Assembly (NCBI RefSeq): GCF_018350175.1
Contig: NC_058383.1
Location: forward strand, 19,406,001-19,470,000
DNA from: Felis catus
Lineage: Eukaryota
DNA: 64,000 nt
Direction: 5' to 3'
The notes beneath the pieces are model-generated. The model was not told where the DNA came from, ran no database searches, and saw only the letters and a program-made list of their open reading frames with translations. Below are positions 1,548 through 20,610 of this stretch, piece by piece (within the stretch, counting starts at the first letter, position 1; each line of letters opens with the position of its first letter). A program made the translations under genes and the position numbers.

Positions 1548-1770
1548 GGGGCGCCTGGGTGGCTCGGTCGGTTAAGCGACCGGCTTCGGCTCAGGTCATG
1601 ATCTCGCAGTCTGTGGGTTCGAGCCCCACGTCCAGCTCTGTGCTGACAGCTCGGAGCCTGGAGCTGGCTTCGGATTCTGTGTCTCCCTCTCTCTCTGACC
1701 CTCCCCCATTCATGTTCTGTCTCTCTGTCTCAAAAATAAATAAACATTAAAAAAAAAAAAAAAAAAAAAA
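1548..1770 (+). mobile_element. CanSINE (tRNA-derived) inserted in L1
   Basis: ggggcgcctgggtggctc head, (CT)n, poly(A); TSD aagaatgaaatctt. Confidence 0.95.
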
Positions 1771-3038: not shown

Positions 3039-3262
3039 GGGGGGGGGGGGGCGCCTGGGTGGCTCAGTCCGTTAAGCAACCGGCTCTTGGTTTCAGCTCG
3101 GGTCATATTTTCATGGTTCATGAGTTCAAGCCCCACACTGGGCTCCACGCTAACACCACAGAGCCTGCTTGAGATTCTCTCTCTCCTTCTCTGCTGCTCG
3201 TATGCTCTGGGTCTCTCTCTCTCTCAAAATAAAATAAATAAACTTAAAGACTTTTAAACTTT
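3039..3262 (+). mobile_element. CanSINE
   Basis: SINE head, (CT)n, A-rich tail. Confidence 0.9.
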
Positions 3263-4309: not shown

Positions 4310-4507
4310 CTTTTTTGTTCTTTTTAACGTTTATTTATTTCTGAGACAGAGAGAGACACAGCATGAGTGGGGGAGGGGCAGAGAGAGAGGGAGACACAGA
4401 ATCCGAAGCAGGCTCTAGGCCCGATGCAGGGCTCGAACTCACAAACCGTGAGATCGTGACCTGAGCCGAAGTCGGCCACTCAGCCGACTGAGCCCCCCAG
4501 GCACCCC
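4310..4507 (-). mobile_element. CanSINE with internal deletion
   Basis: TSD tgctgttagcctctttt / tgctggtagcctctttt. Confidence 0.9.
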
Positions 4508-5277
4508 TGCTGGTAGCCTCTTTTATCTGGAATAACCTTTCTCACTTATGCCATTGGTAGTTTTGAAGCCTCCACGTGAGCTGTTTTGTAGACAGTCCCT
4601 CAATTTGGCTTTGTTTGGTTGATTCCTCATTGGGTTTCATTTTTGAAAAGCATTGTTCATCAACGTTCCCAGCTATGGGTTCACTGAGGAGATAGACATT
4701 CGGCAAAGGAGAGGTCTTCTCGATCATAAGCACAACTGACAGATGGCCACCTCTCAGCACCTTGCTTCCAGGCTGAACATCAATGATATTTACAACAGAC
4801 TGTGCCCCTACAGAGAGCTGGGCACTTTGGGGAGCAAAAGCAGGCCAGCGCAATTCCCAGCCTAGGATTGTTAATTGCAAGGAATAAGGAGTCATGGGGT
4901 TGAGGTTTCCAGTCTGGGTTTCTCTGAGGGCTGGGTGAACAACATCCTTTCTCCCGTCCTCAGTTTCTCCAAACTACAAAATGAGGACGAAAGTACCTAG
5001 CAGTTAACTCACAGGGTTAATGCAGTGATGGATGTTCCACACTCAGCACGGTGCTTAGCACTTAGTAAATGTTCATTTAATGGGAGCTTCTACCCACATG
5101 AAAAACTAGATCATTAAGTCAAATCTCACATGTATTGTTTTAAACCTAACGGGGGGGCTAGAGGTTTTCTGTTAAAGCCAAATCCTGTTGTGATTTTCCT
5201 ATCCTACAGCCCAGCTGCTTGGCTGTGGCAAAGACCCCTGGCCCTTCATGGGGTTATGAGGCTGAACTCCATCTTAC

Positions 5278-5406
5278 CATTACATCCTGAATAGTTAAGA
5301 GGATCCTTTCTTTGTCTGCATTGCTGGCAGGGTCTGGTAATCCATGTGCATTCAGAAGGGAGAAATTAAAGTCACAGGGCGTGGTGCCGGTAGGAGACTT
5401 GGTACC
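5278..5406 (-). CDS. KATNIP: Candidate alternative in-frame cassette exon of KATNIP, 129 nt (43 aa)
   Basis: ccattctctctgcttgcccctag|GGTACC...GTAATG|gtaaga. Phase 0/0, no stop: GTKSPTGTTPCDFNFSLLNAHGLPDPASNADKERILLTIQDVM. Confidence 0.7.
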
Positions 5407-6448
5407 CTAGGGGCAAGCAGAGAGAATGGGCGTGGTAAAAGCAATTTATGTCCCTGAAGATGCGCTGGGTCCCTCGTTCTCTCTGTTGGTCTCCATGCCT
5501 CCCGTCTGCCTCCTCACCGTCCATCATTCTCGGCTCTCTCCCCCAAAGCTGAGCTGGTCAAACTCATCCCTGCCCTACCCACACTGCTGTAGACACACAG
5601 TTAGTAAAGAGACCAGGATCCAAACTCAGGGCACCAACAACCTAGACACTGGGCTCAGTGAGTACCGAGATACGGCCTCCACATCTTGCTGAATAAAGAA
5701 AGTGGGATATCAAATAGTGTGGATGGTATATAATCCCATGTATGTGGAAACAGCTATAAAAAGTAAAGGAAAAAATGGTTCTCACTTGAAAGTTATTTAA
5801 ATGGTAATCCAAAACAGAAGTACCCAAGCAATGGGATGGGCTTAAAGACAATCTTTCATTTTTTAAGCCTCGCCGTTGAAATTAATGAATGGCAAACTGG
5901 AGGGATTTGCTACAGGGCCCTCCCTGCTGGGAACCGGGTGGGATTCCCACTGGGGATGCCTGGCCAGTGATGGCACCCTCTAATCTCCACGATTCCCATA
6001 GGTGAGCCGTCATGGGCCTCGGCAGAGTCCACATGTGGTGGACCTACTGGGGGCACACAGGCTGTGAACAGGTCTTCAGTTGTTTGTATGTGTCAGCAAG
6101 TAACAATGACTTTAAAACATTGAATTGTAATCGTGGGCAAATATCCAGTTCATCCCACACCAGGGTCCACACAATGGAGGCATTCCAGAAGATGATAGGG
6201 CGGTCAAGTCTTCCCATCACCCATCGTGCTCGCAGGAAAAATCAAAAAACTAAACTCAGGAATTACCATCACTCACTGGGGATGGGCCAGGACTGGAACA
6301 TTCCAGATAAACCATCTCCTGTTGGATGTAATCAATACATTACGTATGTAATGAATGTAAGAAACTTTTATTCTGGATGGATACACCCATCTATGACCTC
6401 TGGGGCAGTGGGATTATGAAAAGACTTTTATTTTCTTTGTATGGGTTG

Positions 6449-8122: not shown

Positions 8123-8351
8123 GGGGGGGCACCTGGGCAGCTCAGTCACTTAAGCTTCCGACTTCGGCTCAGGTCGTGATCTCGCGGTTCGTGAGTTCGA
8201 GCCCTGCGTCTGGCTCTGTGCTGACAGCTCGGAGCCAGGAGCCTGCTTCGGATTCTGTGTCTCCCTGTCTCTCTGCCCCTCTCCTGCTTATGCTCTCTCT
8301 CTCTCACACACACAAATAAATAAACATTAAAAACAATGTTTTTTTTTTTTA
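8123..8351 (+). mobile_element. CanSINE
   Basis: TSD aaaagcaagattt. Confidence 0.93.
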
Positions 8352-10543: not shown

Positions 10544-10675
10544 CTGTGGACGGTCCCCGGAAGCGTCCTTGGCCTTGACGGTCACATCCCCACCCGGCTC
10601 AAAATCTTCAGAAGGGTCCAGAGGCGGCTCGATGTGCAGCCGCGGGCCAGCTTCCGTCCTGATCTGCACAGATTT
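10544..10675 (-). CDS. KATNIP: KATNIP coding exon (exon 6 equivalent), 132 nt
   Basis: ctttttctgtatag|AAATCTGTG...CCACAG|gtagga. Encodes KSVQIRTEAGPRLHIEPPLDPSEDFEPGGDVTVKAKDASGDRPQ; overlaps ORF 10460..10669. Confidence 0.96.
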
Positions 10676-10815
10676 CTATACAGAAAAAGTCAGATTGCTT
10701 CAGACGTGATGGGAGGAGCATCTGGATTCCTCCGAGGGGTGAGCACGTTAGCGGCTGATGGCGAGGCGGTAGGTCTGCATGGGCCACGCCACCCCTGCTC
10801 AGAAGCCCTGACTGG

Positions 10816-11028
10816 AGGGCCACCTGGGTGGCCCGGTCGGTTAAGAATCGGACTTCGGCTCAGGTCATGATCTCGCGGTTCGTGAGTTCGAGCCCCGCGT
10901 CGGGATCTATCCGGTCAGCACAGAGCCCCCCTCAGATCCTCTCTTCCCCCCTCTCTCTGCCCCTCCCCTGCTTATGCACGCGTGCACTCTCTCTCTCAAA
11001 AGTAAAAAAAAAAAAATTAAAAAAAAAA
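10816..11028 (+). mobile_element. CanSINE
   Basis: SINE body with poly(A); about 140 bp from the exon 6 acceptor. Confidence 0.9.
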
Positions 11029-11262
11029 GTCTTTACTGGTTCCTACTGCACAAAGGGTGTTCAGTACAATTTTTCACCAACTTTGTAGCTTGAACTACCT
11101 TCTCAGTAGAATTTCAGTGGCTGTTACACTCCCCCCCAAATTGGCTTTGTGATCAAATAAGTTTAGGAGACCCTGGGTTTTCCTCGGGACTTCTCAGGGC
11201 TGGGGCCAGGGTGGCACAAGGGAGGCACCCAGGGGACAACATCTAAGAAGGGGCTCCCTCTT

Positions 11263-20512: not shown

Positions 20513-20610
20513 CTGGTGCCATCCTCGGCGCTGAACTTTGGAAGGGGCTGTCCGCGAGTTGCGTCTTAAAGCTTCTTCCGCTTCTCGAAACAGGGTTCTT
20601 CGCCCGTAAT
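20513..20610 (-). CDS. KATNIP: KATNIP coding exon (exon 5 equivalent), 98 nt
   Basis: tctggtgcag|ATTACGGG...TGGCACCAG|gtcagg. Encodes (D)YGRRTLFREAEEALRRNSRTAPSKVQRRGWHQ; ends in phase 0. Confidence 0.96.

What the first reader, a model, noticed from the sequence alone, without database searches (positions are those of the whole stretch)
5278..5406. Hidden 129-nt in-frame cassette exon in KATNIP intron 6
Seen: strong acceptor (ccattctctctgcttgcccctag), near-consensus donor (ATG|gtaaga), exactly 43 codons, phase 0 like the end of exon 6, no stop, and no recognisable repeat. It is absent from the ORF track. Known from recall: the canonical human protein runs directly DRPQ-ELRRSLELS and lacks this peptide. 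Inference: inclusion gives ...KERILLTIQDVM-ELRRSLEL, a plausible continuous amphipathic helix, so this may be a regulated or ancestral isoform of a ciliopathy protein. It may already exist in predicted gene models.
Basis: partly seen in the sequence, partly recalled or inferred. Interest (0 to 1): 0.7.

Follow-up and report, generated by a model that had tools for sequence, protein, structure and literature searches.

The report
Ancient KATNIP exon human reference skips
This is a real 129-base coding exon of the cilia gene KATNIP that is already in the cat's predicted gene model and in most mammals examined; it encodes the first half of a very old protein motif, so the human reference protein, which skips it, is likely the shortened form.

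Summary
Window 5406-5278 (minus strand) is an AG/GT-bounded, phase-0, 43-codon exon. The identical peptide lies between exons 6 and 7 in the predicted cat protein XP_006942284.2, which maps exon by exon onto this genome. Homologous exons occur in placentals, marsupials, monotremes, turtles and alligator. Skipped and included models coexist in apes, horses, elephant and dog.

The useful addition: the exon's last 11 residues (94% conserved in mammals) and the start of exon 7 form one motif, also found in named lamprey, fish, frog, mollusc and choanoflagellate homologs. Inclusion is therefore likely ancestral, and the human reference protein keeps half the motif. Two unnamed short-contig proteins identical to the human reference in their flanks carry the exon. 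None of the listed whale, New World monkey, guinea-pig, beaver or porcupine models has it.

AlphaFold predicts a disordered first 32 residues, then a short strand and a capped helix, not one continuous amphipathic helix. No junction reads were obtained, so inclusion level and tissue regulation are unmeasured. Interest is low to moderate.

The parts
5278..5406 (-). 129-nt phase 0/0 coding exon of KATNIP (between human-numbered exons 6 and 7; residues 241-283 of predicted cat isoform X1)
5311..5406 (-). first 32 codons: variable linker, predicted disordered
   Evidence: mean identity 0.66 in 30 mammals, 0.08 in 42 distant homologs; most residues pLDDT < 50
5278..5310 (-). last 11 codons (ERILLTIQDVM): first half of the ancient motif completed by ELRKSLE of exon 7
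   Evidence: mean identity 0.94 in 30 mammals; motif in 23 of 42 distant homologs; strand, Thr, helix start in the model
5407..5440 (-). acceptor: pyrimidine tract, TAG, and a branch-point-like site about 30 nt upstream
   Evidence: nearest upstream AG ends at -47
5272..5277 (-). U2-type donor GTAAGA
10544..10675 (-). exon 6 (132 nt, phase 0/0), usual upstream partner; encodes a predicted beta-hairpin and the conserved acidic Y-S-E-D-F-E type motif; itself skipped in some models
20513..20610 (-). exon 5, ends in phase 0; joined directly to the 129-nt exon in some primate, elephant, bat and platypus models

Best explanation
This is an ordinary, old coding exon of KATNIP, already in the cat's predicted protein, whose last 11 residues and the start of exon 7 form one conserved motif that is predicted to fold as a short strand and a capped helix; inclusion is likely the ancestral form and skipping a tolerated, likely later shortening. 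Shown: the splice signals, the frame, the identity with the cat model, the homologous exon from placentals to turtles, and the motif in distant homologs. Inferred: U2-type splicing joins exon 6 (or 5) to this exon and then to exon 7. The protein gains a roughly 32-residue flexible linker, then RILL, a Thr that likely caps the helix (a T-x-x-D capping box, recalled), and the first turns of a helix that continues through ELRKSLE. The motif likely acts as a short binding or self-packing element in the largely disordered N-terminal part, well ahead of the DUF4457 repeats. Because exons 5, 6 and this one all end in phase 0, skipping keeps the frame and leaves a shorter, uncapped helix. That form is the human reference and appears sufficient in lineages whose models never include the exon.
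For: Exact 43-residue match in cat XP_006942284.2, recorded on a contig of the same length as the window's contig, 41,437,797; its residues 63-1725 map onto the window and loci L003-L013. 29 of 37 candidates matched the bare peptide; 27 carry source names (KATNIP/KIAA0556 or hypothetical protein) from mammals across Afrotheria, Laurasiatheria and Euarchontoglires, and 2 are unnamed. Included in 5 of 5 marsupial, 8 of 8 monotreme and 8 of 8 turtle proteins held and in alligator P0315. Conservation in 30 mammals: whole exon 0.73, against 0.79 for exon 6 and 0.63 for exon 7; last 11 residues 0.94. Motif pattern in 23 of 42 distant homologs and in none of 200 shuffles of that set; named carriers are lamprey, a killifish, a poison frog, a mussel, a limpet and the choanoflagellate Salpingoeca. 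Both forms within one group: other apes 11 included / 11 skipped of 23, Equus 8 / 7 of 15, elephant 12 / 3 of 15, canids 10 / 1 of 14. Unnamed Logan proteins P0020, P0210 and P0029 join exon 6, this exon and exon 7 on contigs of 2,788, 1,465 and 1,130 bases; the same exons span about 28 kb in this genome, so they come from spliced transcripts. AlphaFold: strand 216-217, helix 219-240, pLDDT 88 over 221-230.
Against: No reads were laid on the exon, so splicing in cat rests on a predicted (XP_) model and on other species. The protein sets were partly retrieved with queries that contain the exon, which inflates inclusion counts. The motif pattern was written, and the 42 distant proteins were hand-picked from the 132 hits, partly for showing it; 19 of 42 do not match (some are fragments, some degenerate, e.g. 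P0304, P0306). A fish-like unnamed protein, P0354, also lacks the first half, so skipping may be old rather than a mammalian novelty. The model has pTM 0.20 and pLDDT 69 over 211-220. No function is known for this region: no Pfam family and no solved relative.
Confidence: 0.85

Rival explanations
1. A regulated, tissue-specific switch: the exon is included in particular ciliated cells (for example sperm, airway, photoreceptors) to add a binding site, and skipped elsewhere.
For: Both forms are modelled in apes, horses, elephant and dog. The motif half is under strong constraint even in species that also skip it. Human-identical transcripts with the exon exist although the reference skips it.
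Against: No tissue data were obtained. All felid (17 of 17), monotreme (8 of 8) and marsupial (5 of 5) proteins held include it, which fits a near-constitutive exon. Neighbouring exon 6 is also skipped in many models, which points to general leaky skipping of phase-0 exons in a disordered region.
Confidence: 0.3
2. An exon in decay: once constitutive, now under relaxed need in several lineages, with remaining inclusion in humans a leftover.
For: No inclusion in any listed model of whales (0 of 23; 22 skip, 1 not assessable), New World monkeys (0 of 17; 15 skip, 2 not assessable) or guinea pig, beaver and porcupine (0 of 20). These include the X1 models of seven species. Their relatives (hippopotamus, apes, Old World monkeys, squirrels) include it. 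0 of 4 named human proteins held include it.
Against: Absence from gene models is not genomic loss; only 15 of 111 and 15 of 51 members of the main whale and New World monkey clusters were listed. The human-type peptide is intact and in frame, with the 11-residue motif unchanged.
Confidence: 0.3
3. A pseudo-exon or annotation artefact copied between genomes by homology-based gene prediction.
For: Every named record seen to carry it is a predicted or automatically annotated model; the one curated protein held (human NP_056017.4) lacks it.
Against: Frame kept through indels (48 codons in dogs, 41 in fruit bats); conservation to turtles; motif in invertebrates; spliced short contigs P0020, P0210, P0029; no equally good pseudo-exon in 27.7 kb of flanking intron.
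Confidence: 0.02

Closest known systems
Predicted cat KATNIP isoform X1, XP_006942284.2, residues 241-283
   Same: Identical 43 residues, same neighbours, maps exon by exon onto this genome.
   Different: Nothing; this is the same exon. It is a computational model, not a curated transcript.
Human KATNIP/KIAA0556 reference NP_056017.4 (O60303, 1,618 aa; Joubert syndrome 26)
   Same: Same gene, same flanking exons, four DUF4457 stretches.
   Different: Skips the exon, so it keeps only the ELRRSLE half of the motif. The binding sites reported in the passages read (KATNBL1 with the C-terminal half, PMC4699358; axoneme binding by the worm C-terminal region, PMC12663925) lie away from this exon.
Frame-preserving (phase 0/0) alternative exons in disordered protein regions that carry short conserved motifs (general class, recalled)
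   Same: Length divisible by three, symmetric phase, disordered body with a short conserved motif, both forms modelled in several mammals.
   Different: The motif straddles the exon's 3' junction and appears far older than vertebrates; tissue regulation was not shown here.

Membership tests
KATNIP coding exon | AG and GT splice sites, in frame with both neighbours, no stop | tested here: met
KATNIP coding exon | Conserved peptide at the same position in orthologs | tested here: met
KATNIP coding exon | Spliced into mRNA in this species | tested here: inconclusive
   No reads laid. Indirect only: cat model X1 and spliced contigs of other species.
Cassette (alternatively skipped) exon | Included and skipped forms in one species | tested here: met
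   By gene models in orangutan, macaques, horse, elephant and dingo; human reference skips while P0020 and P0210 include. Not seen for cats: 17 of 17 include.
Cassette (alternatively skipped) exon | Tissue- or stage-regulated inclusion | not tested
   No inclusion levels were measured.
Unannotated (hidden or cryptic) exon | Absent from existing gene models | tested here: not met
   Present in XP_006942284.2 and many other models.
Repeat-derived (exonised) young exon | Similarity to a repeat and narrow distribution | tested here: not met
   One match in the genome, none locally; homologous exon in turtles and alligator. No repeat library was searched.

The most novel reading that the evidence does not exclude
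The KATNIP form used as the human clinical and laboratory reference is a derived deletion that cuts in half a motif conserved from choanoflagellates to cats. The complete form is still made in humans in particular ciliated cells, where it binds a partner the short form cannot. The exon was lost independently in whales, New World monkeys and several rodents. Variants in it would be filed as deep intronic in Joubert syndrome testing.
Probability: 0.25. Interest if true: 0.55.

Novelty: already known. Interest (0 to 1): 0.25.

Why it matters
As a discovery of an exon it matters little, because it is annotated. What may matter is the reference choice. One clinical report names its variant on NM_015202 (PMC12111208, passage read), the transcript of the exon-skipping protein NP_056017 (pairing recalled), and cell studies likely use the same form. 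If the included form is the ancestral one and is abundant in some human ciliated tissue, studies of the N-terminal half have used a protein with half a conserved motif, and variants in this exon would be read as intronic. The apparent repeated absence in whales, New World monkeys and some rodents gives a simple comparative test of what the motif is for.

Tried and rejected
Read evidence: the run search listed 24 runs; its 20 holders share 0.61-1.00 of the words of a 501-base stretch that is three-quarters intron, so they hold unspliced sequence and say nothing on splicing. No reads were laid, so inclusion level stays open. Complex prediction of the exon 6 hairpin (P0002 residues 118-170) with the motif (205-245): no verdict, score 0.00 in two runs, alignment not used, controls not folded; it counts neither for nor against. 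Foldseek against PDB: no match at E <= 0.001, best E 4.9. phmmer against PDB: 0 matches. Pfam: no family in the first 446 residues. Rejected: repeat origin, chance pseudo-exon, minor-spliceosome involvement at this exon (both flanking introns have U2-type ends), and a continuous helix through KERILL. Literature: searches (KATNIP, KIAA0556, isoform, exon; 30 of 37 listed; KATNIP + alternative splicing; 7; KATNIP + CILK1; 11 of 14; KIAA0556 + cassette exon; 0; none of the 20 listed mentions KIAA0556; mouse symbol + splicing; 9) showed no title or abstract start about this exon. The library lacks most subscription papers, and no supplements were read; splicing tables there may list it. Earlier scan notes held nothing on it. 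Mouse was not among the named proteins held; its 1,610-residue length (PMC4699358) fits skipping but was not checked.

Full report
Observation. On the minus strand, window 5406-5278 follows a pyrimidine tract ending in TAG and is followed by GTAAGA. It gives 43 residues without a stop; the other frames hold 3 and 2 stops, and the open frame is only 50 codons stop to stop, so an ORF track would miss it. A branch-point-like site lies at about -30 and the nearest upstream AG at -47. The stretch has one match in the 2.4-Gb genome. In the two flanking introns (5,137 and 22,531 nt) no other AG..GT, 3n, stop-free stretch of 60-240 nt reached the same crude splice scores.

What it is. The bare peptide matched 29 of 37 candidates; 27 are named mammalian proteins (KATNIP/KIAA0556 or hypothetical) and 2 are unnamed. 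The cluster listing gave Felis catus isoform X1, XP_006942284.2 (P0048), recorded on a contig of 41,437,797 bases, the length of the window's contig. It holds the exact peptide at residues 241-283, and its residues 63-1725 map exon by exon onto the window and loci L003-L013. Exon 6 is 10675-10544 and exon 7 starts at L003:2246, outside the window; both junctions are phase 0. The exon is therefore already annotated in this species.

Distribution. Of 299 proteins held, 154 include the exon, 119 were scored as skipping and 26 lack an alignable exon 7. Three of the 119 simply start at a Met directly before exon 7, likely the exon's own last codon. This sample is biased, because the searches used exon-containing queries. 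By group (included / skipped / not assessable): Felidae 17/0/0, Canidae 10/1/3, Equus 8/7/0, elephant 12/3/0, apes other than human 11/11/1, named human 0/4/0, squirrels 3/0/0, marsupials 5/0/0, monotremes 8/0/0, whales 0/22/1, New World monkeys 0/15/2, guinea pig, beaver and porcupine 0/20/0. These groups are my selection; bats, ruminants, Old World monkeys and others were not tallied. The whale, monkey and rodent sets include X1 models of seven species, but only part of the large clusters was listed (15 of 111, 15 of 51), and absence from a model is not genomic loss. The frame survives indels: 48 codons in dogs, 41 in fruit bats. Outside mammals, alligator P0315 and 8 of 8 turtle proteins carry a full-length equivalent ending in ERILLSIDDVK.

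Transcript evidence is indirect. Unnamed Logan proteins P0020 (2,788-base contig), P0210 (1,465) and P0029 (1,130) join exon 6, this exon and exon 7, which lie about 28 kb apart here, so the contigs come from spliced RNA. P0020 and P0210 equal the human reference over residues 1-154 and 198-410 and differ from bonobo, chimpanzee, gorilla, orangutan and macaque at several of those positions. Human-type mRNA with the exon therefore exists, although none of the 4 named human proteins held shows it (15 of 311 members of the main cluster were listed). No reads were laid on the cat exon, so inclusion level and tissue pattern are not measured.

Anatomy of the peptide. In 30 mammals the exon is as conserved as its neighbours (0.73, against 0.79 for exon 6 and 0.63 for exon 7), but unevenly: 0.66 over the first 32 residues, 0.94 over the last 11, and 0.96 over the first 10 of exon 7. 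A local profile of the junction found the same pattern in distant homologs from the 50%-representative search: three hydrophobic residues, S/T/N/D/K, a hydrophobic residue, x, D/E/Q, V/I/L, x, x, L-R-x-S-L. It matches 23 of 42 distant proteins and none of 200 shuffles of the set. The pattern was written after seeing the hits and the 42 were hand-picked, so the fraction is descriptive. Named carriers are lamprey, a killifish, a poison frog, a freshwater mussel, a limpet and the choanoflagellate Salpingoeca urceolata. The splice junction cuts this motif in two. Against a purely mammalian origin of skipping, an unnamed fish-like protein (P0354) also lacks the first half, and P0304 and P0306 show a degenerate one.

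Predicted structure. AlphaFold2 on lynx P0002 (one residue different within the exon; 73-sequence alignment) gave pTM 0.20, a mostly disordered N-terminal region, a hairpin in exon 6 (139-142, 148-151), pLDDT under 50 for most of the exon's first 31 residues, a two-residue strand at L216-L217 and a helix from I219 to 240 (pLDDT 69, 88 and 69 over 211-220, 221-230 and 231-240). T218 before the helix, with D three residues on, fits a capping box (recalled). The helix does cross the junction, but it does not include KERILL, and hydrophobic moments are modest. What the strand pairs with is not given by the output.

How it likely works. Shown: signals, frame, annotation, conservation, split motif. 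Inferred: ordinary U2 splicing includes the exon and completes a strand-cap-helix element, probably a short interaction or self-packing site in the disordered N-terminal part, far ahead of the DUF4457 repeats. Skipping is in frame and leaves a shorter helix, which appears tolerated. Inclusion is likely ancestral. Whether skipping is regulated or merely tolerated is open.

Literature. I saw search listings, and keyword passages (not whole texts, no supplements) of PMC4699358, PMC12663925, PMC11311665, PMC12111208 and bioRxiv 10.64898/2026.05.01.722314. None of these passages mentions this exon or motif. They describe the DUF4457 repeats as the only recognised features, KATNBL1 binding to the C-terminal half, and axoneme binding by the C-terminal region of the worm protein.

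Verdict. Real and already annotated; interest 0.25. The residual value is that the human reference protein lacks half of an ancient motif, and that several mammalian lineages may have dropped the exon independently.

Noticed in passing
L012 about 4603 and about 3268 (minus strand), outside the window: Two successive introns near the 3' end of KATNIP begin GTATCCTT, the U12-type 5' consensus (recalled). Minor-intron papers mentioning the gene appeared in search listings (PMC6800510, PMC7507305, PMC9992838; listings only). Unrelated to this exon.
   Followed up: no
window 10544-10675 and 20513-20610: Exon 6 is also skipped in frame: exon 5 joins the 129-nt exon in gorilla, baboon, galago, elephant, fruit bat and platypus models, and joins exon 7 directly in human X11 and X12. 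Exon 6 holds a hairpin and an acidic motif conserved in most distant homologs.
   Followed up: partly
window 5278-5280: The exon's last codon is ATG. Chimpanzee, oryx and sheep models (P0042, P0187, P0280) start with a Met directly before exon 7, and bat, elephant and deer models (P0087, P0106, P0287) start at a Met inside the exon, which could reflect short isoforms or truncated models.
   Followed up: no
proteins P0189-P0191, P0194, P0212-P0225, P0265-P0269 (whales); P0195-P0253 in part (New World monkeys); P0176, P0192, P0204, P0254-P0278 in part (rodents): No listed model in these three lineages includes the exon, whereas hippopotamus, apes, Old World monkeys and squirrels do: possible repeated loss, not checked in genomic DNA.
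   Followed up: partly
window 1560-1750, 2170-2370, 3050-3240, 4310-4510, 8146-8330, 10800-11050: Several tRNA-derived carnivore SINE copies (label recalled) and LINE-like sequence in the flanking introns; none overlaps the exon.
   Followed up: no
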